DNA from: Gammaproteobacteria bacterium | Lineage (GTDB): Bacteria; Pseudomonadota; Gammaproteobacteria; JACCYU01 | NCBI GenBank assembly: GCA_050740315.1 | Contig: JBOIDC010000004.1 | Location: forward strand, 4,918-68,917 | Reading direction: 5' to 3' | Length of the DNA: 64,000 bases | In this document: positions 10,397 to 34,644 of the stretch, in pieces | Layout of the letters: every line of letters starts with the position of its first letter | How positions within the stretch are numbered: the first letter of the stretch is position 1 | The notes under the pieces: generated by a model | The model's input: the letters and a program-made list of their open reading frames with translations, nothing else | Databases searched by the model: none | What the model was told of the DNA's origin: nothing | Program-made: the position numbers and the translations under genes

Positions 10397-12637
10397 TCAG
10401 ATAATGCTGATGGCGGTTGCAGCGCTGGGCCGGGCGCGCCCGATAACGCACGCCTGCCGGTAACCCAGTTCACGCAGTTCGGCGATGCAAGCAGTGGCCT
10501 CATCGGGCGGCACGGCGGCCAGCAGCCCGCCTGATGTCTGGGGATCGAACAGCAGTGGCCACGCCGGGTGAGTGCGTACCGTATCGGCGGCCGTTACGCT
10601 CTGCTCCAGGCGCGCATTCTGCGGCTGCAAAGAGCTAAAAATGCCGGCCGCGACACACTCCCGCGCGCCTTCCAGCAAGGGTAATGCCCGCAGCTCGATG
10701 TCGGCGCCCAGCCCCGACGGCCGCAGCAACGCCAGCAAATGGCCGATCAGACCGAAACCGGTCACGTCGGTGCAGGCGCTGGCGTGATGCGCGCGCAGAC
10801 AATCGGCCGCCTGCGCGCTGGACTGACGCATCATGGCCACGGCCAGGTCGATCCAGCGGCCGTGCGCCCGATGGCGCATGTCAGCGGCGAACAGGGCGCC
10901 GGTGCCGAGCGGTTTGGTCAGGATCAATACCTGTCCGGGCGCCAGCATACGACGGCGCGCGAGATCGTCGGCGTCGATCATGCCGGTCACGGAAAAACCG
11001 ATCCCAAGCTCGGCGCCTTCGCCGGAGTGACCGCCCAGCAACGCGGCGCCGGCAGTGTCCAAAGTGCGCATCGCGCCGGCCATCAACTGATAGAGCTGTT
11101 CCTCCATTACGCTCTCGGCGGCGTAAGGCAAAGTCGCCAGGGCCAGGGCCGAGTGCGGCCGCGCGCCCATGGCGTAGAGATCGCTCAACGCGTGATTGGC
11201 CGCGATCTCACCGAGCACGAATGGATCGTTGATAAAATCGCGGAAGTAATCAATGGATTGCACCAGCTTCACGCCCGCGGGCGGCGTGAATACCGCCGCG
11301 TCGTCCATGTCCTCCAGGCCAATATCGACGCCCTCGCCTGTTCTTTTGGCGAGGCGTTTCAACACCCGTTTAAGCACCGCGTCGCCGACCTTGGCGCCGC
11401 AACCGCCGCAGCGCATCGCGGGCTTGCGCGCGAAATCGACATCCGCTTCGCCGTGCGCTCCGCTGGTAGCGCTACGCGGCTCGCGCATCGCCGGCAAGTC
11501 GTTGTATTTCGACATCCAGCGCCGGTCGATCCAGTCCTTGACTCGCCACAGCCAGCCGCCCGCGGCATACAACCTGCCGCGCGAGGCCACGGCATAGCGA
11601 TTGCCGGTGCTGATCAACGCGAGCGCGCGCGTTTGCGGCCGGTAACGCTTGAGCCGGCGGTGCTCATGGTAGCGGCGCAGATTGCTTGCCAGCACCGCGC
11701 CCTGCTTGACCGCGTAGACGCCGGACTTGGGGTGCGGCGTCTCCATCGAACCGGCCACGTCCCCCGCCGCGAACACGTTGGCGTGCGACGTCGATTGCAG
11801 GCGCGCATCGATCCGGATGAAGCCGCGTGCGTCGAGATCCAGGCCGGTTGATTCAAGCCAATTTGGCGCGGCGACCGCCGTGGCCCACATGACGAAATCG
11901 GCGGCGATCGCGCGCCCGCTCTCGCAGCGCAATCCCGGCGGTTCTACGGCGGTGACGCACTCGCGGGTAATGACCTCAATGCCCCGCGTGGCGAGCACCT
12001 GCACGAAACGAGCGCGCACGCGGCGGTTGTGTTCTGTCAGGATTTGCGTTTGGTCAGTGACGAGCCGCGAACTGCACCGCGTTTCATCAAGTCCTTCCCG
12101 GAGCAAGCCGTGTTGCAACGCCAATATCAACTCGACGCCGCCCGCGCCGCCACCCACAACGGCAATGTCGAGGCGGCCGTTGCGGGCTTGCGCCATGCGA
12201 CATAGTTCACGGCAACCACTGAGCAAAACGTCGACCGGCTTGACCGGAAACACGCGCGCGGCTCGTTCGTCAGCCGGCGGCACGGCGGGCTGCGCGCCGA
12301 TGTTGAGCGACAGAAAATCGTAATGCAGCGGCGGCCTGCCGGTTATGAGCAGACGTTGCTTTTCAGGTTCTAGCGATTCAGCCTCGGCCTGAACAAAATC
12401 GGCGCCCGCGAAGCGCGCCAGCCGCCGCAGATCGATATGACAGGCATCAAAATCGTAATGACCGGCGATCAACCCCGGCAGCATGCCCGAATACGGCGCA
12501 TAGGTAGCGCGCGAGACGAGCGTGAGCCTGAGCCCGGGCGCGGGCCGCATGCCAAAGTGTTTGAGCACGGCCACGTGGCTGTGGCCGGCTCCCGCGAGCA
12601 CCAGATGACGGCGCGCGGGCGTTTTGGCATCGTTCAC
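10397..12637 (-). CDS. selD: Bifunctional pyridine-nucleotide-disulfide oxidoreductase (NADH-dehydrogenase-like) / selenide, water dikinase SelD fusion. The likely start is GTG at 12637.
   Basis: N-terminal HLVLAGAGHSHV Rossmann motif and GDVA FAD motif (~430 aa). C-terminal half matches SelD (MRCGGCGAKV..., DAAV, TDVTGFGL, DPQTSGG); Cys rather than Sec in the active-site loop. Confidence 0.85.
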   Translation of the reverse strand: MNDAKTPARRHLVLAGAGHSHVAVLKHFGMRPAPGLRLTLVSRATYAPYSGMLPGLIAGHYDFDACHIDLRRLARFAGADFVQAEAESLEPEKQRLLITGRPPLHYDFLSLNIGAQPAVPPADERAARVFPVKPVDVLLSGCRELCRMAQARNGRLDIAVVGGGAGGVELILALQHGLLREGLDETRCSSRLVTDQTQILTEHNRRVRARFVQVLATRGIEVITRECVTAVEPPGLRCESGRAIAADFVMWATAVAAPNWLESTGLDLDARGFIRIDARLQSTSHANVFAAGDVAGSMETPHPKSGVYAVKQGAVLASNLRRYHEHRRLKRYRPQTRALALISTGNRYAVASRGRLYAAGGWLWRVKDWIDRRWMSKYNDLPAMREPRSATSGAHGEADVDFARKPAMRCGGCGAKVGDAVLKRVLKRLAKRTGEGVDIGLEDMDDAAVFTPPAGVKLVQSIDYFRDFINDPFVLGEIAANHALSDLYAMGARPHSALALATLPYAAESVMEEQLYQLMAGAMRTLDTAGAALLGGHSGEGAELGIGFSVTGMIDADDLARRRMLAPGQVLILTKPLGTGALFAADMRHRAHGRWIDLAVAMMRQSSAQAADCLRAHHASACTDVTGFGLIGHLLALLRPSGLGADIELRALPLLEGARECVAAGIFSSLQPQNARLEQSVTAADTVRTHPAWPLLFDPQTSGGLLAAVPPDEATACIAELRELGYRQACVIGRARPSAATAISII

Positions 12638-12677
12638 ACGCTGGATTATTCGATCCGGACGCCGCCGGCATTCATGA

Positions 12678-13160
12678 TCAGTAGGCGGGCTTTTCGCTGC
12701 GCAGAAACAGCAGCGCGCCCGACGGCCTTTCCGCCGCGCCATGCGGCAGCCCCCTGGGCGCGAAATGATAGTCGCCGGCTTTCAATATCACGCCTTCTCC
12801 GAGATGCAGTTCGCCCTCCAGCACCAGACATTCCTCGTCGGCCACGTGCACGTGCGCGGGCAGCCGCGCGCCAGGCTCGCGCCGCAGCCGGAACGATGTC
12901 GCGCGCGCGGCACTGATCAATAACCAGGTGTGCGGACGGCCGCGCTTGCCGTCGCATTTCGCGGCATGGCGCCAGACCTGCGGAAACACGTCGATCACGA
13001 CATCTTCCGCCATATCCGGCTATTTGGTGGTGGCCAGCGCGACCGTAAACGCGCGGCATGGTCGCCTCGTAAAACGCATTGAAGGCGTCCCTGTCGCGGC
13101 GCGCAATCCGGTCGATGAGCAGCGCGTAGTTTTCATCCGCCGCTCCGCCGTGACGCGGGC
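12678..13160 (-). pseudogene. Degraded ECF sigma factor / ChrR-type anti-sigma remnant: sigma region-2 fused to an anti-sigma cupin domain, with a frameshift
   Basis: ADENYALLIDRIARRDRDAFNAFYEATMPRVYG (sigma-70 region 2.1) lies in one frame. AEDVVIDVFPQVWRHAAKCDGKRGRPHTWLLISAARA (region 2.2-2.4) lies in another and runs directly into a cupin (HVHVADEECLVLEGEL...GDYHFAPRGLPHG). Sigma region 4 and the anti-sigma zinc domain are absent. Confidence 0.55.
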
Positions 13161-21989: not shown

Positions 21990-22001
21990 GTCTTGTCCAG
22001 A

Positions 22002-22322: not shown

Positions 22323-23453
22323 TCAGCCACGAAGGTCCTGAGCCGCTTGCTTCACGACAGCCGCAGTCAAATCAATCTCGTGAGCCTGCTTCATAGCGTT
22401 GAGTGAAAAACGAACCATTTGCCGTGCGGCCGGCTGATTCGGCTTCATTGCCTTAACAACATGCGACGGTTCGTCGGAATCAGCCAAGCAAGCCGACCCT
22501 CCCGACGCGCAAATACCCGCTTGGTCAAATAGTAGCAACAATGCTTCGGATTCAACGCCGTGGAAGGTAATATTGGTCGTGTTTGCCAGCCGCTGAATCT
22601 TATGCCCATTCAGCTCGGTATCCGGTACCGAGTCCAGAATACTTTCCTCTAAAGTATCGCGGAGCGGGCGCACTTTCTTCTCATAACTCGGCAAGCTCTT
22701 ACGCGCGAGTTCGGCGGCTCTGCCCATGCCGACGATCAAGGCGACGTTTTCCGTACCGCCACGCCGATTACGCTCCTGGTGTCCGCCGTGGACAAACGGC
22801 AAAAACGGTGTCTTACGGCGGACGTATAATGCGCCTATTCCCTTCGGTGCGTGGAATTTGTGGCCGGTGAGCGACAAATAATCGGTCTGCACCTCGCGCA
22901 CATCAATATCGATTTTACCAACGGCCTGTACCGCGTCGCAGTGGTATAAGACCCCTCGCGAGCGGCAAATGTCAGCTATCGCGTTCACCGGGAATAGCAC
23001 TCCGGTTTCATTATTCGCCCACATGAGCGAGACCACAGCCGTTTCATCCGAAATCGCGTTCGCCAAATCCGCCAGCTTCAAGACACCGTCGTAATCCACC
23101 GGCAGATAAGTTACCCGATAGCCCTCGCGCTCGAGCGCCATACAGTAGTTCAGCACCGAGGAATGCTCGACCGCTGATGTGACGATGTGCCGTTTGCTCG
23201 GATTGGCTTTCAGCGCCGCAAGGATGGCCGAATTATTGCTCTCCGTCGCGCAAGACGTGAAAACGATCTCCAGCGGGTGTGCTCCGATCAGCTCTGCGAC
23301 CCGCGCCCTGGCCGTCTCGACCGCCGTCTTCAGCTTCGACCCAAACTTATAGCTGCTGGATGGATTGCCCCACTCAGATGTGAAGTAAGGCATCATCGAG
23401 TCCAGCACTTCCGGGGACACCGAAGTAGTTGCATTACTATCAAGGTAAATCAT
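22323..23453 (-). CDS. Cysteine desulfurase (class V aminotransferase, IscS/NifS/DndA-like), stand-alone
   Basis: MIYLDSNATT N-terminus, PLP-lysine region SLTGHKFHAPKGIGALYV, active-site SGGSAC. No iscU/iscA/hscBA follow. Confidence 0.9.
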   Translation of the reverse strand: MIYLDSNATTSVSPEVLDSMMPYFTSEWGNPSSSYKFGSKLKTAVETARARVAELIGAHPLEIVFTSCATESNNSAILAALKANPSKRHIVTSAVEHSSVLNYCMALEREGYRVTYLPVDYDGVLKLADLANAISDETAVVSLMWANNETGVLFPVNAIADICRSRGVLYHCDAVQAVGKIDIDVREVQTDYLSLTGHKFHAPKGIGALYVRRKTPFLPFVHGGHQERNRRGGTENVALIVGMGRAAELARKSLPSYEKKVRPLRDTLEESILDSVPDTELNGHKIQRLANTTNITFHGVESEALLLLFDQAGICASGGSACLADSDEPSHVVKAMKPNQPAARQMVRFSLNAMKQAHEIDLTAAVVKQAAQDLRG

Positions 23454-23745
23454 ATTCCCCTTACAAGTAATTAATCCAAACTCGGTCGACGGCACCCGCA
23501 GCTCGCCCCCGAGCTCACGGTCGGCCGCGACCTCGGATTCGATGGGCAGTTTATGTCAGGGACACCTTGGCCCTGATCCTAAACCCATTGCGCGAGTGCC
23601 GACGGCGTTCAGCGTCGAACGGGGCCTCAGTGCCCCTATTAGCCTCGGCATAGTTTATCCCACGTTCGGTGGCCTATTTGAGCGAATGCAATACGGTCAT
23701 GGGCATTGAAAACTCACGGTACTAGCCGCAGTTCACCTCCGCAAC

Positions 23746-24390
23746 TCAAGCGATACCCTTCATGGCTCTCGCCGTCATCAATCCCCACAGCCAGTTGATC
23801 TTGTAGCGTTCGATCTCCACCTGGGCGTGCCCGGTTTCCTGCAAAAGTCGCGCGCATTCCCGCTCCGCGTAAGTCTTGAAATGCGCGCGGCTGAACCAGC
23901 GCAGATACAGATCGCAGAGACGGCAAGCCAGGTAGTCATCGCACCAGTCAGTGATGATCAGCCGGCCGCCCGGGCGCAGCACGCGATCCATCTCGTGCAA
24001 CGCCTCGACGGGCTGTCGGATGTAGTGAAATACGTTGCACGAGACGACGACATCGAATTGTTGCGCTTCGAAGGGTAGCCGCTCCGCCCAGCCTTCACGC
24101 AGATCGACCGAGTCCGAAAGCCGCCGCCGCGCAACATCGAGCATCTCCCGCACGGGATCGACGCCGGCCAATTGCGCGCGCGGGTGAGTACCAATAAGGC
24201 GATCGAGCAAAACGCCGGTACCGCAGCCGACATCGAGCACGCGGTCGCGTGGGCCCAGCCGCAGACGCGCCAGTGTCTCTTCGATCGTGGCCTCGATATA
24301 GAACCGCCACCTCTTGTCGTAATCGCTTGCGAGTCGTGCGTATTCCTCGACTATCGGCTCGCGCGATCGACGCCGCCGGGGCTTAGCCAT
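23746..24390 (-). CDS. Class I SAM-dependent methyltransferase (UbiE/COQ5-like, type 11)
   Basis: VLDVGCGTGV motif I, DVVVSCNVFHY, LRPGGRLII. Confidence 0.8.
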   Translation of the reverse strand: MAKPRRRRSREPIVEEYARLASDYDKRWRFYIEATIEETLARLRLGPRDRVLDVGCGTGVLLDRLIGTHPRAQLAGVDPVREMLDVARRRLSDSVDLREGWAERLPFEAQQFDVVVSCNVFHYIRQPVEALHEMDRVLRPGGRLIITDWCDDYLACRLCDLYLRWFSRAHFKTYAERECARLLQETGHAQVEIERYKINWLWGLMTARAMKGIA

Positions 24391-24545
24391 CGCCGGTGTA
24401 TTTCAACGCGCTCGACGCCGGGATGACGCGTCCGCTCAATTTCGCTGCGAGTTTTGTGCGGTACGGCATGCAGCGGTTTTCATCGGCAACATCCAATCTT
24501 TCAAAAGTAAGGTATATAGTACTTGTCCATACGCAAACATCCGGC

Positions 24546-25151
24546 ATGCGGCGCCATAAAAGCTTGAGCATTACTCGCCTCGGTTTAATCTTCGTTTGGG
24601 CCGGAGCAATCCTGTTCCTCGGGCCGGGTTGCGACCCGGAGACGGCTACCGACCGCGAACCCGCGGGCGCCAACGCCGATGCGGATCACGACGCAGCGGG
24701 CAAGAAAACCGCAGCGTCCAAACAGGCCGCGGCGGTGTTCGATGCGAGCTTCCACAAACTCGAAGACTGGAACCAGATGCAATCGCTCTCGAAATGGCGC
24801 GGCCAGTATCTGGTGCTGAATTTTTGGGCGACCTGGTGCAAGTCCTGCCACCACGAAGTGCCGGAGCTGAACAAGCTCTACAACCAGTTCAAGGACAAAA
24901 ATACCGTGGTCGTGGGTCTTGCCGTGGATAATGCCGACAAGGTCAAAGATTATGCGGCGAAATATGGCGTCGATTATCCGATCCTCGTGGGCGGTAACGA
25001 GGCGCTGGAATTATCGAAAAAGATGGGCAACAAGGTCGTCGGACTGCCCTTCACGATCATGATCACGCCGCAAGGCGAAGTGGTCGAGACCATTCTCGGC
25101 GCCACCGAGAAAGGCACTCTGCCCAAGGTTCTCACGCCGCATCTAATGTGA
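24546..25151 (+). CDS. TlpA/ResA-like periplasmic thiol:disulfide oxidoreductase (thioredoxin fold), probable lipoprotein
   Basis: Signal peptide ...AILFLGPGC, WATWCKSC active site. Likely start is the internal ATG at 24546. Confidence 0.8.
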   Translation: MRRHKSLSITRLGLIFVWAGAILFLGPGCDPETATDREPAGANADADHDAAGKKTAASKQAAAVFDASFHKLEDWNQMQSLSKWRGQYLVLNFWATWCKSCHHEVPELNKLYNQFKDKNTVVVGLAVDNADKVKDYAAKYGVDYPILVGGNEALELSKKMGNKVVGLPFTIMITPQGEVVETILGATEKGTLPKVLTPHLM

Positions 25152-25189
25152 GACTTCGGGCATTCAAACCCAAACAGGAGGTAACCGTT

Positions 25190-26731
25190 ATGCGACTATT
25201 AAAAATTCCGACTGCCAATACGCGCAGGGCGAGTCCCAGGGTATTGGCGGCGGCCTTCGGCGTAGGGCTTGGGGTCGCCGTGTCGGGCGCGGCGCTCGCC
25301 AAGGACTACCCAACCGTCACAGTGGTTGATCCGTCGCCGGTGAACTGGCTTTGGATAACGTGGAACACCATGGAAGAAGCGGTGCGCGTGGACTACAACG
25401 GCCACACGCAACCCGCGCTGGCGGAGAGCTGGGAATGGAAAGATAACCAAACGCTGACGCTAGACATGCGCGACGACGCGGTGTTTCAGGACGGCAGCGC
25501 GTTCGATCCCGCGGTGTTCAAGCGCAGCTTCGACGAGGTGCAGAAGTGGGAAAACCCGCATCCGCCGGGCGCCTGGCTGAATTTCTCCAAGCAGGCCAGC
25601 ATGGAGACGCCGGATGATGACACGGTGGTGTTCAACACCGCGATGGTCGACGGCACCACCATCACCAAACTGCGCGGCATGCACGTCGGCAGCCAGAAGT
25701 TCTGGGGGCAGGGCGGTTTCAACACCGCCGAAGGCTCATCCGAAGGGAATTGGTGAGTCATCAAAGAACCCGGTCCGTGGGGGACTGGGCCATTTGAACT
25801 GGTAGCAGGTACGTCGTTGCTCGACAAGCGTTCTCCCGAAGTTGTGCTGGAGCCCAATGAAGAATACTGGAATCCGGCGCGTAAACCGACGGTGCGCGTG
25901 GTGTTCGACAATGTTATTCCGAAGGCCGAGGCCGTGAAAGACGTCGGCAGCGCGGACGGCGAGATCGATATTGTCACTGAACTGACACCGGCCGAGGCCC
26001 AGCAGGTGGAAGACAGCGATGCCGCAAATGTGGTCGCGAGCGACTCGAAGACCGTGCTGCTCGGGGTCTTCAATCAGACCAGCGGCGATTCCAAATGGAA
26101 TGACGTCAATCTGCGCAAGGCGGTCAACTACGCGGTGGATCGGCAAGGCGTCATCGATGACGCGATGATGGGTTACGGCAATCTCATGCCGGCCACCATC
26201 CTCGAAGGGAATTTCGGTTACAACGATAGTCTGGAGCCTTATGCGCATGACCCGGAGCAGGCCAGGCGGCTTGCGAAGGACGCCGACAAGACCGTCACCA
26301 TCGTGACCGACGAAGCGCACAAGGGCGTGGCCGATGCCGTGGCCGCGGATCTGAACGCCGCCGGTTTCGACGCGACCGTTAAGGTCGGAGAGCCTGCAGG
26401 CGAGTGGGACATCTGGCTAGTCGAGCACTTCGACTGGTCGCCGGAGTTCCCCGCCGCCGTGGTGCATCGCGAGTTCTTCGGCGACACGGGCGGGTTCCTC
26501 AAGTCACCGGGCGACAAGCAACTACAGGGCTTGATCGATCAGGCGATGAGTACCGTCGATAAGGACGAGCAGGAAGAAATCACGCAGGCGATCGAGAAAC
26601 ACATCTACGATCACGCCGATGCGCTGTTGCTGTTCGCGCCGCAAAAACTCTACGCGGTGCGCGACGGCGTGGACTTCACGCCTTACAAGTCCACGGTGCT
26701 GGAACTGGCGGAGACCATGGTGGACGAGTAA
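25190..26731 (+). pseudogene. ABC transporter substrate-binding protein, family 5 (peptide/nickel/opine type) with a single in-frame TGA at 25754-25756. Either a nonsense pseudogene or, less likely, a UGA-Sec readthrough.
   Basis: AGGAGG ribosome-binding site then ATG 25190. Signal peptide; family-5 motifs (ALAESWEW..., GTGPFEL, EPNEEYW). The reading frame is continuous across the TGA, and ORFs 25148-25756 and 25817-26731 are in the same frame. Total ~513 codons, normal for the family. Confidence 0.6.
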
Positions 26732-26840
26732 GGATGTGGCTGCGGCAACAACCGTCTGGCCCTCGCACGGGGCCAGATTTTTTTCAGCCTTGGGTGGTTG
26801 CGAACTCGCGTAAGGCAGACCGCCCGGCCGGGAGATTGAA

Positions 26841-28793
26841 TTGATCATCGGCACTGCGGGTCATATCGATCACGGCAAGACCGCGCTCATCAAGGCATTG
26901 ACCGGCATCGACGCGGACCGCCTGGCCGAAGAGAAACGGCGCGGCATGACGATCGATCTGGGCTACGCGTATCACGAGCTGCCGGACGGCAATGTGATGG
27001 GCTTCGTGGATGTGCCCGGGCACGAGAAGTTCGTACACAACATGCTGTCGGGCGCGCTGGGTATCGACTATGTGCTGCTGGTGATCGCGGCCGATGACGG
27101 GCCGATGCCGCAGACTCGCGAACATCTGGCGATCGTCGATCTGCTGGCGATGAAGGAGGGTGTCGTGGCGCTTTCGAAAATCGATCTGGTCACACCGGCG
27201 CACATTGAAGAGACCGAACACGCGATACGCTCGATGCTGGCGGGCACGAGTCTCGCGGGAGCCGACGTTATGCGCGTATCCACGAAGAGCGGCTCTGGCC
27301 TCGATGCGCTTTACAAGCGGCTGGCGGAAGTCGCGAGAATACAATCACCCCGCGCCAGTAGCGGCCAATTCAGGCTGGCGGTGGATCGCTCATTCAGCGT
27401 GCGAGGCGCGGGCACCGTCGTGACCGGCACCGTGCATGCTGGCACGGTGCGCCCGGACGATCGTCTGACGGTTTCGCCGGCCGGCCTGAGCGCGCGGGTG
27501 CGCAGCATTCGCTGCCAGAACAAACAAACCAGTCTCGGACGGGCGGGCGATCGCTGCGCACTGAACCTGGCTGGCGCGAACCTTGATGCGCGGGCCATAC
27601 AGCGTGGCGACTGGATTCTCGCGCCGGTTCTGCACCGGCCTTCCGCGCGGCTCGATTGCCGGCTGCATATCTTGCTTTCGGAACCACGTCCGCTGCGCCA
27701 CTGGACGCCGGTGCATGTGCACGTCGGCGCGGCGGATATTAGCGGTCGCGTCGCGGTTCTGGAGAAGGAATCCATCGATCCCGGCGCGTCTGGGCTGGTA
27801 CAAATCGTACTGGACAAACCGATACCGGCGCTGCACGGCGACCGATTGATACTGCGCGATCAGTCGGCGCTGCGCACGGTTGGCGGCGGCTACGTGCTCG
27901 ATCCGACGCCGCCCGCGCGCGGGCGGCGCAAGCCGTATCGACTAGCGTCGCTTGCGGCGCTCGAACAACCGGCGCCCGCTGAGGCGCTCGAACGTCTGCT
28001 CGACCTGCGAGGCGCTACAGGACTGGATCTGGACTGGTTCGGCTTTGTCTGGAATCTGCGCGCTGAAGAATTCTACCGCCTTCAAAGCACGTGCGAGTTC
28101 CATGTCTTCGAAGCTACGGGAAATCGTACAGGCATCAAGTTTGCCGCCTGGCAGGCGCTGCGGAACGACGTTATCGAAGCGCTTGCCGAGCACCATCGGC
28201 GCGCACCGAATGAAACCGGCATCACCGAGGGCAAGCTCCGGCAGCTGCTGCGCGACCAGGCACCCGGCGCTTTGGTGAAGCTTGCGGTCAATGAATTGAT
28301 CGCCGAAGGTGCGATCCTGCGTCACGGCGCGCTGTTGCATCTGCCGGGGCATGTCGATCGCCTGTCGCCGATCGAGGAAAACCTGTGGCGGCGGTTGTAT
28401 GCGAAGATCGACGCGGGCGGACTGCGACCGCCCCGCCCGCGCGAGCTGGCCGAAATGTTCCGGGAGGATCGGACGCGCATCAAGGCGTTGCTCAAGCGCC
28501 AGGCGAAAGCCGGAAAAATCTGCGAGATTTCCGACGAGCTTTATTACCCGCTGCACACCATCGCCGAACTGGCCGCCACGACCGAGGCGCTTTGCAATGC
28601 GCAAAACGGCAACCCCATCACCATGCGCATCTTCCGCGAGGGCACGGGCATCGACCGTAACGTCACCATCGAGGTGCTGGAATATTTCGACCGCGTGGGC
28701 CTGACCTTGCGCGTCAATAACGGACGGCGGCTGCAGGGGACCGCGGCCGCAATCTTCGGCGCGCGGGACTCGAATCGGGTGGCGCGCTTATAA
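26841..28793 (+). CDS. selB: Selenocysteine-specific elongation factor SelB (TTG start)
   Basis: MIIGTAGHIDHGKT..., DVPGHEKF, then C-terminal winged-helix domains ending ...ILEYFDRVGLT. Collinear with E. coli SelB as recalled. GGAG lies 7 nt upstream of the TTG. Confidence 0.92.
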   Translation: MIIGTAGHIDHGKTALIKALTGIDADRLAEEKRRGMTIDLGYAYHELPDGNVMGFVDVPGHEKFVHNMLSGALGIDYVLLVIAADDGPMPQTREHLAIVDLLAMKEGVVALSKIDLVTPAHIEETEHAIRSMLAGTSLAGADVMRVSTKSGSGLDALYKRLAEVARIQSPRASSGQFRLAVDRSFSVRGAGTVVTGTVHAGTVRPDDRLTVSPAGLSARVRSIRCQNKQTSLGRAGDRCALNLAGANLDARAIQRGDWILAPVLHRPSARLDCRLHILLSEPRPLRHWTPVHVHVGAADISGRVAVLEKESIDPGASGLVQIVLDKPIPALHGDRLILRDQSALRTVGGGYVLDPTPPARGRRKPYRLASLAALEQPAPAEALERLLDLRGATGLDLDWFGFVWNLRAEEFYRLQSTCEFHVFEATGNRTGIKFAAWQALRNDVIEALAEHHRRAPNETGITEGKLRQLLRDQAPGALVKLAVNELIAEGAILRHGALLHLPGHVDRLSPIEENLWRRLYAKIDAGGLRPPRPRELAEMFREDRTRIKALLKRQAKAGKICEISDELYYPLHTIAELAATTEALCNAQNGNPITMRIFREGTGIDRNVTIEVLEYFDRVGLTLRVNNGRRLQGTAAAIFGARDSNRVARL

Positions 28794-28803
28794 TCGCAAG
28801 AAT

Positions 28804-28900
28804 GGAAGAGATTCGATCCCCGGTGGGGCGTCCGGACTTCAAATCCGGGAGGGGCCGTCACGCGGTCCTTGGTGGGTTCGACTCCCACTCTCTTCCGCCA
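28804..28900 (+). tRNA. selC: tRNA-Sec (selC), anticodon UCA
   Basis: 97 nt: GGAAGAG...GGACTTCAAATCC...long variable arm...GGTTCGACTCC...CTCTTCCGCCA. Near-identical architecture to E. coli selC. Confidence 0.9.
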
Positions 28901-28921
28901 TTGTGAATCCCGGAATTCCGC

Positions 28922-30346
28922 ATGGATGAAGATAGGTCCCGCCGGTTCTCGGCGCTGCCGTCGGTGGAAAAGCTGCTGCGTACCGAGTCGCTGGCGCGGC
29001 AAAGCGAACGCTACGGTCGGCGCGCCGTATTGGACGCCGTGCGCGCCGCGCTGGAACAAGCGCGCGCGGCGATCCGCACCGGCGACTGGAAGACGAACGA
29101 TAGCCTTGGTCTTCTGCAGGCGCGTTGCGAGTCTTTGCTGGAAAAACAGTTTCAATCGGCGCTCAGGCCGGTTTTTAATCTTACCGGAACCGTTTTGCAC
29201 ACCAATCTCGGCCGCGCACCGTTGCCGGCGGCGGCGGTGCACGCGCTTCGCCTGGCAGCGGGCGCCTGCAACGTCGAATACGATTTGACAACCGGCGAAC
29301 GCGGGCAGCGCGAGACGCACATCGAAAAGCTGCTCGTGGAACTCACCGGCGCGGAGGCCGCAACGGTAGTCAATAACAATGCCGCAGCCGTGGTGCTCGC
29401 GCTGAGCACCCTGGCGGCGGGGCACGAAACCATCGTCTCGCGCGGCGAGTTGGTGGAGATCGGCGGCGCCTTCAGAATCCCGGACATCATGACGAGTTCG
29501 GGCAGCCGCCTGTGCGAAGTGGGCACCACGAACCGCACGCATGCGAGAGACTATCGCGATGCGATTGACCCGAACACGGCGCTGATCATGCGGGTACACA
29601 CCAGCAATTACGAGATCCGCGGATTCACCAAGTCCGTGCCGGAGAAAACCCTGGCGGCTCTGGCGCACGAGCGCGGCCTGCCCCTGCTGGTGGATCTGGG
29701 CAGCGGCAGCCTGGTAGATTTGGCGCAATACGGTTTGCCGCACGAACCTACGCCCGCCGAGAGTCTGGACGCCGGCGCCGATCTCGTTACATTTTCCGGC
29801 GACAAGTTGCTCGGCGGGCCACAGACGGGACTGATCGTCGGACGCAAGGAATTGATCGACAGGATCAACCGGAACCCGCTCAAGCGCGCCTTACGGATCG
29901 ACAAATTGATCATGGCCGCGCTGGAGGCGGTGCTGAAGTTGTACAAATCCCCGGAGTTTTTGGCTAGAGATTTACCGGGCTTACGACTGCTGACCCGGCC
30001 CGCCAGTGAGATCGAGGAGATGGCGCGCAGGCTGCGTCCGCGCATGCAGGATGCATTGTCCGGCGTTTGTGAAATCGAGGTGGAGGCGTGCGAGAGTCAA
30101 ATCGGCAGTGGTTCGCTGCCGGTGGATTGCCTGCCGAGCTGGTGCATTTCGATCAGGCCCTCGTTCGCGCAAAAAAATGCAGGCCGTTTTCTGGAGCAAA
30201 TGACATCGCGTTTGAGAGATCTGCCCGTTCCCATCATCGGCCGCACCCACAAAGGCGCGATCAAATTGGATTTGCGCTGTCTGGAAGACGAGCCATTGTT
30301 CATCGAACAGCTGAACGCGCTACCGGACCAGCCTGCGGCCGGCTAG
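28922..30346 (+). CDS. selA: L-seryl-tRNA(Sec) selenium transferase SelA
   Basis: SALRPVFNLTGTVLHTNLGRA, VVSRGELVEIGGAFRIPD, EVGTTNRTHA, FSGDKLLGGPQ (PLP-lysine). Collinear with E. coli SelA. Confidence 0.92.
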   Translation: MDEDRSRRFSALPSVEKLLRTESLARQSERYGRRAVLDAVRAALEQARAAIRTGDWKTNDSLGLLQARCESLLEKQFQSALRPVFNLTGTVLHTNLGRAPLPAAAVHALRLAAGACNVEYDLTTGERGQRETHIEKLLVELTGAEAATVVNNNAAAVVLALSTLAAGHETIVSRGELVEIGGAFRIPDIMTSSGSRLCEVGTTNRTHARDYRDAIDPNTALIMRVHTSNYEIRGFTKSVPEKTLAALAHERGLPLLVDLGSGSLVDLAQYGLPHEPTPAESLDAGADLVTFSGDKLLGGPQTGLIVGRKELIDRINRNPLKRALRIDKLIMAALEAVLKLYKSPEFLARDLPGLRLLTRPASEIEEMARRLRPRMQDALSGVCEIEVEACESQIGSGSLPVDCLPSWCISIRPSFAQKNAGRFLEQMTSRLRDLPVPIIGRTHKGAIKLDLRCLEDEPLFIEQLNALPDQPAAG

Positions 30347-30372
30347 AACTCTAATCTGTGGTGCCGCCGGTT

Positions 30373-31179
30373 TCATACGCTCAAGGTGCAGATGGCTTTG
30401 GGCTCCATCAGCAGCGGCACGATGCTCTCGCTGATGAACAGATGATAATGAATGCCGTCGTTCGAGGAATAGCCGGCCATGGCGTCCTGGCCCACCACCA
30501 GCGCGCCGACTCTGGCGTCGACCAGCACGGCGTCCTCGATCGGCGCCTTATAGATGCCCAGCTTGCACAGGCGCCGCAGGTGGTCGTGCTGCAGCATGTC
30601 GGTGCCTTCGTAGCGCTTGAACAGGTTGTTGTAATGGCCGGGCGGTAACGCCAGCGCGTATGGCCCGTAAAAACCCGCCTTGTCCAGGGTCTCCACCGCC
30701 TTGAGCACGTCGTTGATGGACTGCTCGACCTTGGACCAGTCGCCCATCGGAACGTCATTGCGGCCCTTGGCGGTTAACAGACCTTCCACGCCAAAGTCGG
30801 GCGAACCGTTGTAGATAAAATCTTCCTCGCGGCGCGCGACCGCTTCGGCGGCGTCTTCGATGGGGCTGGACTCGAAGCGCTGCCCCATGTGCAGATGCGC
30901 CTCCACCTGCCGGATGCTGAGCTTGAAATTCTTGCGCAGCATCGGCACGGAGATGGCGCGGCTCAGCACCGCGGCGGCCTCGTCTTCGCCCGGCTCCCGG
31001 CAGAAGTCGTCCGCGCCTACTTCCAGCGAGGTCATGCCCACGCCATAAGGCCCTTCCAGATCCATGAAGCGACGCGCGGTCAGCGCGTCGCGCATGGCTT
31101 CCACGGCGGCCTTATCGATTTCGCTCCAGATCTGCGCCGGCAGGGGCGTATTTTCGCGATTGAGATAACGCATGATCAC
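30373..31179 (-). CDS. Family 1 encapsulin nanocompartment shell protein (linocin M18-like)
   Basis: 268 aa, collinear with T. maritima encapsulin as recalled (W-x-E-I-D, DLEGPYG, GPYALAL, C-terminal LLMEPKAICTL). Confidence 0.85.
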   Translation of the reverse strand: MIMRYLNRENTPLPAQIWSEIDKAAVEAMRDALTARRFMDLEGPYGVGMTSLEVGADDFCREPGEDEAAAVLSRAISVPMLRKNFKLSIRQVEAHLHMGQRFESSPIEDAAEAVARREEDFIYNGSPDFGVEGLLTAKGRNDVPMGDWSKVEQSINDVLKAVETLDKAGFYGPYALALPPGHYNNLFKRYEGTDMLQHDHLRRLCKLGIYKAPIEDAVLVDARVGALVVGQDAMAGYSSNDGIHYHLFISESIVPLLMEPKAICTLSV

Positions 31180-31580
31180 GTTCCTTTCAGACTGCCGACC
31201 GTCAGCCGCATGGTCGGCGGAGGTTCATCGGCCGCCGGGACGCCGCCGTTATCCGGGTCGGCTTCGCCACCGTTCATGGCTTCGTCCTCGACCTCGGTGA
31301 TCGGGCCTTTGCTGAACAGATAGGTCTTCAGCCGCGCGTCCAGGTCATCGCTGTTACGGCGCAGCCACTCCAGCACCATGCAGGCGTGTTCCATTTCTTC
31401 GCGCATGTTGTGCAGCAGCACCTCCCGCAGTTGTTGATCCGACGCGGCGTCCGCGCGCTGCCGGTACCAGTCCACCGCCTCCAGCTCTTCCTGCAGGGAA
31501 ACGAGCGCGCGGTGCATATCGCGGGTGGACTCGGACAATAATTCCAGCGGCTCATGATAGCTTTCGCTAGCGCCCGCCAT
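31176..31580 (-). CDS. Encapsulated ferritin-like cargo protein (EncFtn) with C-terminal encapsulin targeting peptide
   Basis: Ferritin-like EEMEHACMVLEWLRR motif; C-terminus ...PTMRLTVGSLKGT (canonical GSLKG-type targeting peptide). Overlaps the shell gene by 4 nt. Confidence 0.8.
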   Translation of the reverse strand: MAGASESYHEPLELLSESTRDMHRALVSLQEELEAVDWYRQRADAASDQQLREVLLHNMREEMEHACMVLEWLRRNSDDLDARLKTYLFSKGPITEVEDEAMNGGEADPDNGGVPAADEPPPTMRLTVGSLKGT

Positions 31581-31770
31581 GCCGTGCTCCTGTATTCGAA
31601 GGGAACTGAATCATTACATCTGGAGAAAACCAAGCAAGTTCTTTACCGTATCATCAATGCCTCGGCGCGTCAGCCCTTCATAAATCGATCCGTACGCAAC
31701 CGCTCGCGCACTGCACCGGCACCTAACTTGCGTGGCAGTTGCTTTTCAAACTTCACTTTCGGTCGTACCG

Positions 31771-32049
31771 ATGACGATTTTCTACAACCTGGCGCTGACC
31801 GTCTTGCTGCTTTGCGCGGCGGCTTACGCGCACTGGCGGCTGCCGTTTCACACCGCAACCCCGCGCCACACGCTGATTGCGCGACTGATCCTGCTGGTGG
31901 TCGGGATGGCGTTCGGTGTGGCGGTGGCGACGACCTACACGAATGCGCAAGGCGCGCAGTGGCTGATCGCGTTCTGTGCCGGCTTCGGCGCCGTGCACGT
32001 GCCCGCGGCCGCTATCCTGTTTCTCAAGCGGCAGCGTTTGAAGGGCTAA
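31771..32049 (+). CDS. Small hypothetical membrane protein
   Basis: Three hydrophobic segments; no recognisable motif. Confidence 0.3.
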   Translation: MTIFYNLALTVLLLCAAAYAHWRLPFHTATPRHTLIARLILLVVGMAFGVAVATTYTNAQGAQWLIAFCAGFGAVHVPAAAILFLKRQRLKG

Positions 32050-33072: not shown

Positions 33073-33705
33073 CTATTGACCGGCGGCGCCCGCTTCCATC
33101 GCAACCAGATAGTCGATGACTTTGAGCATGTTTTCGTAGCTGCCGGCCTGAGTGGCGGACGTTTGATACTGACCGTCCACAATAACCGCCGGCACCCCCG
33201 TGATGGCGTAGAGGCGCTGTAACTCGTTGGCGCGCTGCAACCGCGCCTGCGCCCCCGGTGAGTTGTAGGCCTTTCGAAACTCCGCCTCATCCACGCCTTG
33301 CTGCGCCAGAAAACGCGCTATCGAATTTATGTCCGTGAGACGGCGGCCCTGTTCGTGGATGGCCTGAAAAAACGCCTTGTGCACGCGCTCGGCTTCGCCC
33401 ATGACCTCCAGCGCATAGTAGGCGCGCGCATGTCCGATCCAGCTTGGATTTAGGATCGCCGGCATACGCACGAACTCGGCCGCTGCGGGTTTGGACTTCT
33501 GCCACTGCTCAAGATAAGGCTCGAAGTCATAGCAGTGTGGACAGCCGTACCAGAACACCTCGACGACTTCGACCTTGCCGTCAGGCACATTGGTGGGTGC
33601 CGGCGGCGAGATGCGGTCATATTCGACGCCCTCGGTAAAATTCGGCGCCGCCTGTACGCTGAACGCCAGCGCGCACAGCAAGCCCATAACCCAGTTTTTC
33701 ATCAA
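33073..33705 (-). CDS. dsbA: Thiol:disulfide interchange protein DsbA
   Basis: Signal peptide, FWYGCPHCYDFEP active site, C-terminal cis-Pro region (TGVPAVIV). Confidence 0.9.
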   Translation of the reverse strand: MMKNWVMGLLCALAFSVQAAPNFTEGVEYDRISPPAPTNVPDGKVEVVEVFWYGCPHCYDFEPYLEQWQKSKPAAAEFVRMPAILNPSWIGHARAYYALEVMGEAERVHKAFFQAIHEQGRRLTDINSIARFLAQQGVDEAEFRKAYNSPGAQARLQRANELQRLYAITGVPAVIVDGQYQTSATQAGSYENMLKVIDYLVAMEAGAAGQ

Positions 33706-33869: not shown

Positions 33870-34502
33870 TCAATGGCGTGGTTTATCCGCCACGCGATGG
33901 AGTCCGGAGATGTATTGCGCCACCGCTTCGATTTCCGCTTCGCTCATGCGACCGGCGATGTCGCGCATCATCTCGGCGGGATCGTTGGTGCGTTCCCCCG
34001 CGCGATAAGCACGCAGCTGCGCGGCGACATATTGGGCATGCTGATGCGAAAGCTTGGGGAAAACCGCCGCCGCATTGCCAGCGCCAGCCGGGCCGTGACA
34101 GGCCATGCAGGCCGGCACATCACGCGCTGCCACGCCGCCACGATAAACGCGCTCTCCAGACCACAGTTTGTCCTTGTCGGCAGCCGCTGGAGCGGTGGTT
34201 TGCGCCGCGTAATAGGCCGCCAGATCGCGCATGTCTTTCTGGCTGAGACTGGCGGCCTGCGCGTTCATGATCGGGTTGACGCGCGCCTTGCTTTTGAAGT
34301 CTTGCAGCTGTTTATAGATATACTGCGGATGCTGGCCCGCGAGCTTTGGCCACTGCGGGTTGACGCTGTTACCGTCGACCCCGTGGCAGGCGGCGCAGGG
34401 CGCGGACTTCGCCTGCCCCGCTTGCGCATCCGCCGCAGGCACCTGCGCGGGCATCAGCCACAGACACGCGAGCGCTACCCATACAAGCTTTTTCGTTTCC
34501 AT
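33870..34502 (-). CDS. Cytochrome c4 (diheme)
   Basis: Signal peptide then two CXXCH (CAACH, CMACH) with the following Met ligand regions. Likely start is the internal METKKL. Confidence 0.85.
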   Translation of the reverse strand: METKKLVWVALACLWLMPAQVPAADAQAGQAKSAPCAACHGVDGNSVNPQWPKLAGQHPQYIYKQLQDFKSKARVNPIMNAQAASLSQKDMRDLAAYYAAQTTAPAAADKDKLWSGERVYRGGVAARDVPACMACHGPAGAGNAAAVFPKLSHQHAQYVAAQLRAYRAGERTNDPAEMMRDIAGRMSEAEIEAVAQYISGLHRVADKPRH

Positions 34503-34644
34503 TGATTTCCTTACAACGTGATCAGACCGTGCGGCAGAAAAGCGATGAGCACGGAACGCATCAGCGATGCAAAATACGGGGCCTGCCAACGGCAAGGGGC
34601 GGAAAGTTAGCATAAAATGCGTGTCCCGCGCCAATCGTCAGCTT

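What the first reader, a model, noticed from the sequence alone, without database searches (positions are those of the whole stretch)
26841..30346. Compact selB - tRNA-Sec - selA unit with the tRNA gene embedded between the two protein genes
selB (TTG start) ends at 28793. selC lies at 28804-28900 and selA starts at 28922, so the tRNA sits inside what is probably one transcription unit. In E. coli selC is unlinked and the order is selAB. Here the order is selB, selC, selA with 10- and 21-nt spacers, which is an unusual and very tight arrangement.
Basis: seen in the sequence. Interest (0 to 1): 0.5.

Follow-up and report, generated by a model that had tools for sequence, protein, structure and literature searches.

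The report
Compact selB–tRNA-Sec–selA selenoprotein cassette
The genes a bacterium needs to insert selenocysteine sit head to tail with the tRNA gene between the two protein genes, and this rare order turns out to be the usual companion of an apparently uncatalogued selenium-containing periplasmic protein encoded just upstream.

Summary
Neither start codon can move upstream.

A tight selB-selC junction is ordinary in Proteobacteria: 38 of 54 selA-selB-selC loci have a gap of 20 nt or less, or an overlap. Only selA lying after the tRNA is uncommon (1 of 80 SelA-anchored genome loci).

The order is not a one-off. It is the commonest layout of a conserved cassette: TlpA-like redoxin, a family-5 solute-binding protein with an in-frame TGA, a terminator-like hairpin, then selB, selC and selA.

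The binding protein (25190-26731, TGA at 25754) looks like a selenoprotein. All 87 copies have TGA and none has a Cys codon. A hairpin with covarying pairs follows the TGA. The SelB proteins linked to it form their own clade. I found the family neither in NCBIfam nor in the selenoprotein catalogues I could read.

Transcription is probably not a simple single unit. A perfect TATAAT overlaps the selB stop, 9 nt before the tRNA, and a sister group carries a conserved TTGACA-N16-TAGCNT at the same place. Co-transcription of selC with selA is the firmer inference.

Verdict: a new variant of a known kind, of moderate interest.

The parts
24396..25151 (+). TlpA/ResA-like thiol:disulfide oxidoreductase. 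The ORF starts at GTG 24396; the likely true start is ATG 24546 (MRRHKSL...). It has a hydrophobic N-terminus and a WCKSC active site.
   Evidence: Pfam Redoxin and AhpC-TSA. NCBIfam ResA 85 bits and TlpA 64 bits, both below their cutoffs. Translation. A redoxin occupies this position in L001, L027, L087, L088 and many of L090-L116.
25190..26731 (+). Family-5 solute-binding-protein gene with an in-frame TGA at 25754-25756 (motif EGNW-U-VIKEPGPWGTGPF). It is a candidate periplasmic selenoprotein, SBP(U). The mature protein has no Cys.
   Evidence: The two halves hit consecutive parts of PF00496 in one frame. All 120 best database homologues are C-terminal fragments. N-terminal fragments end exactly at the Trp before the TGA. 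87 of 87 copies have TGA at this codon.
25754..25802 (+). Candidate bacterial SECIS: an extended hairpin whose base includes the UGA. The apical stem CCCGGUCC/GGACUGGG starts 12 nt after the UGA, with loop GUGGG.
   Evidence: Single-sequence folds. On 31 dereplicated sequences, 86.1% of cells are paired against 28-48% when slid, and the covariation score is reached by 0 of 500 shuffles. Columns 12-39 show C-G (14) swapping with U-A (13) at synonymous positions.
26754..26786 (+). Intrinsic-terminator-like hairpin (10 bp, 6 G-C pairs) plus a T7 run, between SBP(U) and selB.
   Evidence: One search folded this intergenic region in six loci: a GC-rich hairpin followed by a run of T at the same place in the window, L001, L088 and L089, and a GC-rich hairpin with a weaker T tail in L027 and L087.
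26841..28793 (+). selB, the selenocysteine-specific elongation factor (650 aa, TTG start, TAA stop).
   Evidence: Pfam domains. N-terminal alignment and Shine-Dalgarno sequence. It belongs to the SelB clade made up only of SBP(U)-linked genes.
28765..28794 (+). Candidate internal promoter for selC and selA: GGGACT, 18 nt, TATAAT. The -10 hexamer overlaps the selB stop codon and ends 9 nt before the tRNA 5' end.
   Evidence: Sequence. L001 has CGGACA-18-TATAAT at the same place, and it is the only promoter-like site the scanner finds in 3.8 kb. A different subgroup has a conserved TTGACA-N16-TAGCNT about 8 nt before the tRNA. TATAAT as a hexamer is not enriched in the window: 4 found, 5.8 expected.
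28804..28900 (+). selC, tRNA-Sec (UCA anticodon, 97 nt including the encoded CCA).
28922..30346 (+). selA, L-seryl-tRNA(Sec) selenium transferase (474 aa).
   Evidence: Pfam SelA 523 bits. 100% identical to an NCBI MAG protein named as such (P0001). Alignment A1 includes the invariant GDK PLP-lysine motif.
10397..12742 (-). Unlinked partner: selenophosphate synthetase SelD fused to an N-terminal pyridine-nucleotide-disulfide oxidoreductase domain (781 aa).
   Evidence: tblastn hit. Pfam Pyr_redox_2, AIRS and AIRS_C. NCBIfam TIGR03169 427 bits (cutoff 310) and TIGR00476 selD 288 bits (cutoff 125).

Best explanation
selB-selC-selA is the machinery half of a conserved, co-inherited cassette whose client is the gene directly upstream. 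That gene encodes a periplasmic family-5 solute-binding-fold protein with one selenocysteine, SBP(U), preceded by a TlpA-like redoxin.

Proposed expression (inferred):
1. The redoxin and SBP(U) genes form the strongly expressed part of the cassette.
2. A terminator-like hairpin after SBP(U) lets only some transcripts continue into selB, which would keep SelB low.
3. A promoter overlapping the selB stop codon adds transcripts that start at or just before the tRNA and run on into selA.
4. The tRNA is therefore always made on a precursor that also carries selA mRNA, and sometimes selB mRNA.
5. RNase P cuts at 28804, leaving selB with its stop codon intact 10 nt upstream. This differs from nested selC genes, where the cut removes the stop.
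6. 3' processing after the encoded CCA leaves selA with a leader of about 20 nt containing a weak GGA Shine-Dalgarno sequence.

Shown: the gene identities, the spacers, conservation of the order and of the cassette, the TGA plus hairpin, and the separate SelB clade. Inferred: co-transcription, the internal promoter, terminator read-through, the processing steps, and the function of SBP(U).
For: Identity and geometry.

Conservation of B-C-A:
- The closest relatives (74% SelA identity) have the same order.
- Of 86 SBP(U) loci, 72 are informative and 42 of those have selB directly downstream.
- Of the 36 with sequence beyond selB, 19 have selC(+) immediately after it, and 17 of those continue into selA.
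- In 15 of the 17, a selA start candidate lies 9-32 nt after the tRNA; no terminator-like site lies in the spacer in the two loci scanned (window; L001).

Cassette as an evolutionary unit: 34 of 34 SBP(U)-linked SelBs have an SBP(U)-linked nearest neighbour, and 32 form a pure clade that excludes all 60 other SelBs.

SBP(U) as a selenoprotein:
- TGA in 87 of 87 copies at 41-100% identity.
- Database homologues are truncated on both sides of the TGA.
- The hairpin is 86% paired, with covariation beyond 500 of 500 shuffles.

Internal promoter:
- TATAAT lies 9 nt before the tRNA in the window and L001.
- The L001 site is the scanner's only hit in 3.8 kb.
- Seven loci of another subgroup carry a conserved TTGACA-N16-TAGCNT with variable spacer bases.

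Terminator before selB: hairpin plus T run in four of the six loci inspected, hairpin with a weaker T tail in the other two. The scanner finds no sigma-70-like promoter anywhere in 24000-32000.
Against: There are no transcript data, so every transcriptional step is inference.

Weak points of the promoter idea:
- The window's -35 matches only 3 of 6, so the site fails the scanner's criteria.
- TATAAT contains the TAA stop codon, so its presence is partly forced. The hexamer is not enriched in the window.
- L027, L087, L089 and L098 show no convincing promoter before selC.

Weak points on SBP(U):
- Blanket synonymous-site conservation after the TGA is not significant (0.67 vs 0.64, p = 0.30).
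- RNAalifold alone gave a poor consensus on 31 sequences.
- No Cys-form homologue was found. The only full-length relatives have Gln or Gly at the position, so the usual Sec/Cys-pair criterion is not met.

Other limits:
- SelA from the cassettes is not cleanly monophyletic.
- 30 of the 72 informative SBP(U) loci have no adjacent selB.
- Both surveys return only the best 80 hits, so the frequencies are not population estimates.
Confidence: 0.7

Rival explanations
1. One promoter upstream of selB, or read-through from the SBP operon, makes a single selB-selC-selA transcript. The tRNA is cut out of its middle, and there is no internal promoter.
For: The scanner finds no sigma-70-like site anywhere in 24000-32000. 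The 10-nt and 21-nt spacers leave no room for signals between the genes. L027, L087, L089 and L098 have no convincing promoter before selC. The scanner finds no terminator-like site at either junction.
Against: A perfect TATAAT lies 9 nt before the tRNA in the window and L001. In L001 it is a 10-of-12 site and the only one found in 3.8 kb. A sister subgroup has a conserved TTGACA-N16-TAGCNT at the same place. A tRNA normally needs far more transcripts than a low-abundance factor such as SelB (general knowledge). No recognisable promoter lies between the upstream terminator and selB either.
Confidence: 0.3
2. The order B-C-A is a neutral by-product of rearrangement, for example tandem duplication of selA-selB-selC followed by loss of the outer copies, or relocation of selA. 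Genome compaction then shortened the spacers, with no regulatory meaning.
For: In SBP(U) loci the positions of selC and selA are variable: selC lies on the opposite strand in 4 loci, is absent within 200 nt in 13, and precedes the SBP gene in L112 and L145. This shows the order is not essential. SelA is not monophyletic across cassettes. The selA-selB translational coupling typical of A-B-C loci (a 4-nt overlap in most) is simply lost here.
Against: B-C-A with short spacers persists across SBP identities of 45-100% and in several sequence-distinct lineages. Promoter-like hexamers are conserved against variable spacer sequence. SBP(U) followed by selB is kept in 42 of 72 informative loci.
Confidence: 0.25
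3. This is a trade-off of the kind Mukai proposed for nested selC genes. Folding and excision of the tRNA destroy the neighbouring mRNAs, so tRNA-Sec production and SelB/SelA production are alternatives. That would balance SelB against its tRNA.
For: The model was proposed for nested and overlapping selC genes (PMC8124441). One cassette locus, L096, has selC inside the selB reading frame (gap -111). After RNase P cleavage the selB message would end 10 nt past its stop codon with no protective 3' hairpin.
Against: In the window the selB stop codon lies upstream of the cleavage site, so cleavage does not create a non-stop mRNA. selA keeps a leader of about 20 nt with a Shine-Dalgarno-like GGA. 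The model has no experimental support in any system.
Confidence: 0.15

Closest known systems
Proteobacterial fdoGHI-(fdhE)-selA-selB-selC(-selD) cluster (Zhang et al. 2006, cited in PMC8124441)
   Same: The Sec machinery genes are clustered on one strand beside the gene for their client selenoprotein. selC lies within a few nt of the selB stop. Seen here in L005 and L006 and in 54 of 80 surveyed loci.
   Different: There the client is formate dehydrogenase and the order is A-B-C, with selA-selB overlapping by 4 nt in most loci. Here the client is a solute-binding-fold protein and selB comes first. selA follows the tRNA, and selD is 15 kb away as a fusion protein.
selC nested in or overlapping selB (Mukai 2021, PMC8124441)
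   Same: The link between selB and selC is extremely tight, which implies a shared precursor RNA and processing next to coding sequence.
   Different: In the window the tRNA lies wholly outside the selB ORF (TAA at 28791-28793, tRNA from 28804). What follows the tRNA is selA, not an unrelated ORF. Nesting does occur in one cassette locus, L096.
selCAB operon of a termite-gut symbiont, where the tRNA ends 2 nt before the selA start (mentioned in PMC8124441)
   Same: tRNA-Sec lies immediately upstream of selA, so selA is presumably translated from a tRNA-led transcript.
   Different: There selB follows selA. Here selB precedes the tRNA, so the tRNA lies between two protein genes.
E. coli selAB operon with unlinked selC and selD
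   Same: The same four components, and the same domain architecture for SelB and SelA.
   Different: selC is elsewhere on the E. coli chromosome with its own promoter (established knowledge). The enterobacterial loci in the survey have no tRNA-Sec within 8 kb.
tRNA-mRNA co-transcripts such as the E. coli thrU-tyrU-glyT-thrT-tufB operon (own knowledge, not tested here)
   Same: tRNA gene(s) lie directly upstream of a protein gene of the same functional system. They are released by RNase P and 3' processing, and the mRNA survives.
   Different: Those tRNAs are housekeeping tRNAs with EF-Tu. Here it is the Sec-specific tRNA with the enzyme that converts its serine, and a further protein gene lies upstream.
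SaoB, SaoX and BtuF, the known Sec-containing substrate-binding proteins (Haft & Gwadz, bioRxiv 10.1101/2022.07.06.499078; review PMC13188914)
   Same: A periplasmic or extracytoplasmic binding-protein fold carrying selenocysteine.
   Different: SaoB has a CU motif, is related to a different binding-protein class (3VVE/4ZV2-like), occurs only in anaerobes, and sits with its ABC permease. SBP(U) is PF00496, has a W-U-V-I motif and no Cys. No adjacent permease or ATPase was found in the loci inspected. It is partnered with a TlpA-like redoxin, DsbD and selB.

Membership tests
Bacterial SelB | An EF-Tu-like GTPase with domains II and III, plus C-terminal winged-helix domains that bind the SECIS. 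| tested here: met
   Pfam GTP_EFTU 103.9 bits, GTP_EFTU_D2, Beta-barrel_SelB 97.3, SelB-wing_2 34.4 and SelB-wing_3 38.7, all above their cutoffs. The G1 motif GTAGHIDHGKT lies at residues 4-14.
SelA (bacterial selenocysteine synthase) | The PF03841 fold with the N-terminal tRNA-binding domain and the PLP-binding lysine. | tested here: met
   SelA 523 bits and Se-cys_synth_N 42 bits. The FSGDKLLGGPQ stretch with K295 is invariant in 14 sequences.
Bacterial tRNA-Sec (selC) | UCA anticodon, 8-bp acceptor and 5-bp T stem, long variable arm, and an Rfam RF01852 score above gathering. | tested here: met
   (71.2 bits against 47).
Proteobacterial selABC(D) cluster | selA, selB and selC on one strand with selC immediately after selB. 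| tested here: met
   All three are on the + strand, with a 10-nt selB-selC gap.
Proteobacterial selABC(D) cluster | Gene order selA-selB-selC with selA/selB translational coupling, next to fdoGHI. | tested here: not met
   The order is B-C-A. The upstream neighbours are a redoxin and SBP(U), not a formate dehydrogenase. In the survey, 54 of 80 loci are A-B-C and 1 is B-C-A.
Nested or overlapping selC (Mukai 2021) | The tRNA-Sec sequence lies inside, or overlaps, the selB reading frame. | tested here: not met
   The selB stop TAA is at 28791-28793 and the tRNA starts at 28804.
Polycistronic tRNA-mRNA transcription unit | A single primary transcript spanning the tRNA and the flanking coding sequences. 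| not testable with these tools
   Only indirect evidence is available. The scanner finds no terminator-like site at the junctions. There is a possible promoter at 28765-28794.
Bacterial selenoprotein gene, for SBP(U) at 25190-26731 | An in-frame UGA conserved among homologues, with homology continuing on both sides. | tested here: met
   87 of 87 copies have TGA. Invariant motifs lie on both sides in alignment A3. The Pfam profile continues across the TGA.
Bacterial selenoprotein gene, for SBP(U) | A SECIS hairpin starting about 11 nt after the UGA, with G/U in the apical loop. | tested here: met
   The stem starts 12 nt after the UGA and the loop is GUGGG. 86% of cells are paired against 28-48% when slid, and 0 of 500 shuffles reach the covariation score. 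No Rfam family matches it. SelB binding was not tested.
Bacterial selenoprotein gene, for SBP(U) | Cys-containing homologues aligned at the Sec position. | tested here: not met
   None was found. The full-length relatives P0249 and P0251 have Gln and Gly at the position.
Bacterial selenoprotein gene, for SBP(U) | Selenium actually incorporated into the protein. | not testable with these tools
   This needs 75Se labelling or mass spectrometry.
ABC-transporter substrate-binding protein, family 5 | The PF00496 fold and an export signal. | tested here: met
   PF00496 matches both halves. The PDB profile search matches DppA, NikA and AccA at E of about 1e-24. The signal-peptide-like N-terminus was judged by eye, with no predictor.
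ABC-transporter substrate-binding protein, family 5 | Encoded with cognate permease and ATPase genes. | tested here: not met
   No Opp/Dpp/Nik-type permease or ATPase is adjacent in the window, L001, L087, L088, L108 or L153. L089 has an unrelated NMT1/phosphonate-type transporter after selA.

The most novel reading that the evidence does not exclude
The sel unit is the dedicated decoding module of an undescribed, widespread selenoprotein family that has no Cys form: a periplasmic family-5 solute-binding-fold protein whose single selenocysteine is its only Cys-type residue.

The family travels with its own SelB lineage. A DsbD and TlpA-like reducing pathway accompanies it, and no ABC transporter genes were found next to it. 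It would therefore be a periplasmic selenium-based redox or capture protein, not a transport subunit. In some of these bacteria the Sec trait may be kept largely for this one protein. The B-C-A order, with a promoter built into the end of selB, would be the expression design of this cassette.
Probability: 0.5. Interest if true: 0.7.

Novelty: new variant of a known kind. Interest (0 to 1): 0.5.

Why it matters
For the gene order alone the stakes are modest. It adds a fourth documented way of wiring selC to selA and selB, alongside unlinked, A-B-C or nested, and C-A-B. It is a natural case where one precursor RNA may carry a tRNA between, or ahead of, the two proteins that act on that tRNA. That bears on how cells set the SelB : tRNA-Sec : SelA ratio.

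The larger value lies in what the order points to:
- **A likely new selenoprotein family.** Gene callers and NCBI's pipeline currently split it into two 'ABC transporter substrate-binding protein' fragments.
- **Breadth.** It occurs in Gammaproteobacteria, Burkholderiales, Gemmatimonadales and many metagenomes.
- **No Cys-form relatives found.** This makes it a useful case for asking what selenium does that sulfur cannot.
- **A practical search flag.** selB directly downstream of a TGA-split ORF is a cheap way to find such families.

Tried and rejected
- **NifS-like gene as a selenium donor: rejected.** I first thought the gene at 22323-23495 might be a selenocysteine lyase or selenium donor for the cassette. 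It scores as DndA/SspA (480 bits) and borders a low-GC Dnd-like defence island. It is absent from the syntenic position in L001.
- **Blanket third-codon-position conservation after the TGA: rejected.** It looked striking in 7 sequences but is not significant in 31 dereplicated ones (p = 0.30). I replaced it with an explicit pair count.
- **RNAalifold on 31 sequences: poor consensus.** Two apical hairpin designs use different registers.
- **Hairpin before selB as a SECIS-like SelB autoregulatory element (as in E. coli selAB): no support.** In five of the six loci inspected the loop is 4-5 nt; four carry a clear T run and two (L027, L087) a weaker one.
- **6-bp leader-trailer helix around the tRNA in the window: rejected.** By eye, the L001 spacer sequences cannot form it.
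- **Rfam permissive scan of the cassette:** only tRNA-Sec was found.
- **Exact-sequence look-up of the window's SelA:** not on record.
- **Haft & Tolstoy 2025 (PMC12013261):** not held. I checked its families through the review table and through NCBIfam.

Full report
**1.

ARAGORN places a tRNA-SeC (anticodon tca) at 28804-28900 on the + strand. Rfam's tRNA-Sec model scores it at 71.2 bits, against a gathering score of 47. Its drawn structure has the bacterial 8-bp acceptor and 5-bp T stems, a long variable arm and an encoded GCCA end.

The flanking ORFs are 26841-28793 (TTG, 650 aa) and 28922-30346 (ATG, 474 aa). The first has the full SelB domain set. The second scores 523 bits on Pfam SelA and is 100% identical to a protein from an NCBI 'MAG: Gammaproteobacteria bacterium'.

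Neither start can move upstream:
- TTG 26841 is the first start codon of its ORF. It yields LIIGTAGHIDHGKT, which matches the ATG-started N-termini of relatives, and a GGGAG lies 6 nt before it.
- An in-frame TGA at 28904-28906 precedes selA's ATG, and 13 homologues begin at the same aligned residue.

The spacers are therefore 10 and 21 nt, as reported.

**2. How unusual is it?**

I anchored a survey on a SelA alignment and retrieved the 80 best loci from one-genome-per-species contigs. I located selB and selA by tblastn and selC with ARAGORN.

| Arrangement (80 loci) | Loci |
|---|---|
| selA-selB-selC on one strand | 54 |
| selA and selB, no tRNA-Sec within the flank (includes the enterobacteria) | 19 |
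| selC-selA-selB | 1 |
| selB-selC-selA (L027, a Nevskia MAG) | 1 |
| other (selA-selC without selB 2; selA alone 2; selB on the opposite strand 1) | 5 |

Within the 54 A-B-C loci, the selB-to-selC gap is 20 nt or less in 20 loci and negative (overlapping or nested) in 18.

The 10-nt junction is therefore typical of Proteobacteria. Overlapping and nested selC genes, and a selCAB operon whose tRNA ends 2 nt before selA, are already published (PMC8124441). What is uncommon is selA lying after the tRNA. I found no paper in the searchable library that uses selBCA or selB-selC-selA.

**3. The order is conserved and has a context**

The closest relatives (74% SelA identity) come from independent ENA, Logan and JGI assemblies. 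All have B-C-A, with 10/20-nt spacers in L001-L003 and 80/16 nt in L004.

L001 conserves a larger block: a methyltransferase (-), a redoxin, a family-5 solute-binding-protein gene called as two ORFs, selB, selC, selA, then encapsulin (-) and EncFtn (-).

In the window the two SBP_bac_5 ORFs (25148-25756 and 25817-26731) are in one frame. They are separated by TGA at 25754-25756 and hit consecutive parts of the Pfam profile. The only other B-C-A locus in the genome survey, L027, has the same redoxin plus split-SBP pair directly upstream.

**4. The upstream gene looks like a selenoprotein, SBP(U)**

- **Truncated homologues.** A search with the read-through protein returned 120 best hits at 45-100% identity, and every one was a C-terminal fragment of about 290-340 aa. 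An exhaustive HMMER search with the exact N-terminal fragment returned short proteins that end at the Trp before the TGA.
- **Universal TGA.** A metagenome scan with a read-through alignment gave 80 more loci. In all 87 gene copies (41-100% identity) the aligned codon is TGA and never a Cys codon. The motif is EG(N/H)W-U-VI..GPWGTGPF.
- **A hairpin in the right place.** Each of 31 dereplicated sequences folds into a hairpin at the same offset. The apical stem starts 12 nt after the UGA and the loop contains G and U.
- **Base pairing is maintained.** A blanket test of synonymous-site conservation was negative (p = 0.30). An explicit pair count on the extended hairpin gave 86.1% paired cells, against 28-48% when partners are slid. 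No shuffle out of 500 reached the covariation score. One pair swaps C-G (14 sequences) with U-A (13), and both columns are synonymous third positions. The sequences are related, so the shuffle control overstates significance, but the slide control does not share that weakness.
- **No Cys form.** The only full-length relatives have Gln or Gly at the position. The mature window protein contains no Cys.
- **Apparently uncatalogued.**
  - NCBIfam (June 2026) has no specific model. The best hit is NikA at 96 bits against a cutoff of 393.
  - The 2026 review table of more than 110 families, which includes the Haft & Tolstoy 2025 families, does not list it.
  - A term search of the BSepDB paper's main text found no substrate-binding, ABC-transporter or PF00496 mention; its supplementary family table was not read.
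  - The Sec-containing binding proteins that are known (SaoB, SaoX, BtuF) belong to other families.
  - I could not read Haft & Tolstoy 2025 directly.

**5. SBP(U) and the sel genes form a cassette**

Counts for the 86 SBP(U) loci:

| Category | Loci |
|---|---|
| Contig ends too early to judge | 14 |
| Informative | 72 |
| - selB directly downstream (gap 54-194 nt) | 42 |
| - no adjacent selB (mostly a 41-43% identity soil group) | 30 |
| selB present, with sequence beyond it | 36 |
| - selC(+) immediately after selB | 19 |
| - of those, continuing into selA | 17 |
| - selC on the opposite strand | 4 |
| - no selC within 200 nt | 13 |

B-C-A is thus the commonest complete layout. It spans several sequence-distinct lineages:
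- the window group
- L027
- L089
- L095
- L096, where selC is nested in the selB frame
- L098/L099
- the L126-L139 group

In a neighbour-joining tree of 94 SelB proteins, all 34 SBP(U)-linked ones have an SBP(U)-linked nearest neighbour. Thirty-two form a pure clade that excludes all 60 others. SelA is less cleanly separated.

Caveat: both surveys keep only the best 80 matches, so these are descriptive counts and not frequencies in nature.

**6. What SBP(U) may do (inference)**

It has a signal-peptide-like N-terminus (judged by eye). By sequence it is closest to the DppA, NikA, AccA and glutathione-binding branch of family 5.

No Opp/Dpp/Nik-type permease or ATPase genes are adjacent in any locus I inspected. 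The recurrent partners are instead:
- a TlpA/ResA-like redoxin with a WCKSC site;
- DsbD, in L088 and L108.

I therefore favour a periplasmic selenol-based redox or capture protein that is kept reduced by DsbD and the redoxin. This is a hypothesis only. I could not model the full-length protein.

**7. How the sel unit is probably expressed**

- **Before selB.** A terminator-like hairpin lies between SBP(U) and selB in each of the six loci inspected. Four carry a clear T run (window, L001, L088, L089) and two a weaker one (L027, L087). Its position is conserved and its sequence is not. No sigma-70-like promoter lies between it and selB in the window. This suggests selB is fed by attenuated read-through.
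- **At the selB-selC junction.** A perfect TATAAT (28789-28794) overlaps the TAA stop and ends 9 nt before the tRNA, with GGGACT 18 nt upstream. L001 has CGGACA-18-TATAAT at the same place, and it is the scanner's only hit in 3.8 kb.
- **In a different subgroup.** L126, L131, L133, L134, L136, L139 and L143 have a 31-52-nt spacer carrying TTGACA-N16-TAGCNT about 8 nt before the tRNA. The hexamers are conserved while the bases between them vary.
- **Counter-evidence.** TATAAT is not enriched in the window. It is partly forced by the stop codon. L027, L087, L089 and L098 show nothing convincing.
- **Between selC and selA.** Spacers are typically 9-32 nt. The scanner found no terminator-like site there in the window or L001.

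The most robust inference is that selC and selA share a transcript. The tRNA would be released by RNase P and 3' trimming, leaving selA a leader of about 20 nt. selB would join that transcript when polymerase reads through.

Unlike nested selC genes, cleavage at 28804 leaves the selB stop codon in place, so no non-stop mRNA is produced. None of this can be verified without transcript data.

**8. Verdict**

- **Observation:** confirmed.
- **Interpretation:** partly supported.
- **Novelty:** a new variant of a known kind. It is a sel cluster with linked selC, in an order not described in the literature I could search. That order is tied to a client selenoprotein family that appears uncatalogued.
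- **Interest:** about 0.5. The gene order alone would rate lower, and the cassette and its client raise it.

Noticed in passing
window 25190-26731 (+), TGA at 25754-25756: A family-5 solute-binding-protein gene interrupted by a universally conserved in-frame TGA, followed by a SECIS-like hairpin. It is a likely new selenoprotein family, currently annotated everywhere as two fragments. No Cys-form homologue was found.
   Followed up: yes
window 10397-12742 (-): SelD is a 781-aa fusion with an N-terminal pyridine-nucleotide-disulfide oxidoreductase domain (TIGR03169 427 bits, selD 288 bits). It lies 15 kb from the other sel genes, on the opposite strand.
   Followed up: partly
window about 15650-23500: A low-GC stretch (52-56% against about 62%) carries a Dnd-like defence island: DndC-like 16448-17503 (384 bits), HNH 17760-18674, split Ppl-like ATPases 18682-21599, a DndA/SspA-like cysteine desulfurase 22323-23495 (-) (480 bits), and a PDC-S03 hit at 15651-16205. 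It is absent from the syntenic position in L001.
   Followed up: partly
window 30373-31580 (-): Encapsulin (Linocin_M18, 219 bits) and an encapsulated-ferritin cargo (EncFtn-like, 133 bits) converge on selA. Only 26 nt separate the stop codons and the scanner found no terminator-like site there. The pair is conserved next to selA in L001-L003.
   Followed up: no
window 23746-24390 (-); L001 4812-5456 (-): A SAM-dependent methyltransferase, distantly similar to ArsM/UbiE-type and to methyltransferase selenoprotein models, is divergently oriented from the redoxin-SBP(U) genes. It is conserved at that position in L001. A link to the cassette is possible but untested.
   Followed up: no
L088 1167-12987: A fuller version of the cassette on a 3.19-Mb contig: selD, DsbD, redoxin, SBP(U) copy 1, a TOBE-domain gene, an unknown gene, and SBP(U) copy 2 (no obvious signal peptide). 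Then come selB, an inserted DUF2383 gene on the opposite strand, tRNA-Sec and selA.
   Followed up: partly
L096 5106-7115: In this B-C-A cassette the selB reading frame runs on through the tRNA-Sec gene (stop 111 nt past the tRNA start). This is the nested arrangement described by Mukai 2021, here followed by selA.
   Followed up: no
L118, L123, L128, L137: tRNA-Sec lies 5-23 nt after the selB stop but on the opposite strand. This recalls the reversed selC overlap reported for Shewanella.
   Followed up: no
L001 555-1949: A selenium-binding-protein-56 family gene (PF05694, the methanethiol-oxidase family) lies about 4 kb upstream of the cassette in the 74%-identity relative. The window has the defence island at the corresponding place.
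   Followed up: no
window 33073-33705 (-); L001 14152-15441 (-): A DsbA-like thioredoxin-fold gene lies downstream of the cassette (Pfam DSBA). In L001 a DsbA-like gene and a di-haem cytochrome c gene lie side by side at the corresponding place; the window ORF next to DsbA (33870-34634, -) was not scanned. A cytochrome c gene also follows the sel genes in L027 and L087.
   Followed up: no
window 28794-28799 with 28901-28906: In the window, the 5' leader (UCGCAA) and the 3' trailer (UUGUGA) of the tRNA can pair into a 6-bp helix that extends the acceptor stem. By eye, the L001 spacers cannot form it, so it is probably fortuitous.
   Followed up: partly
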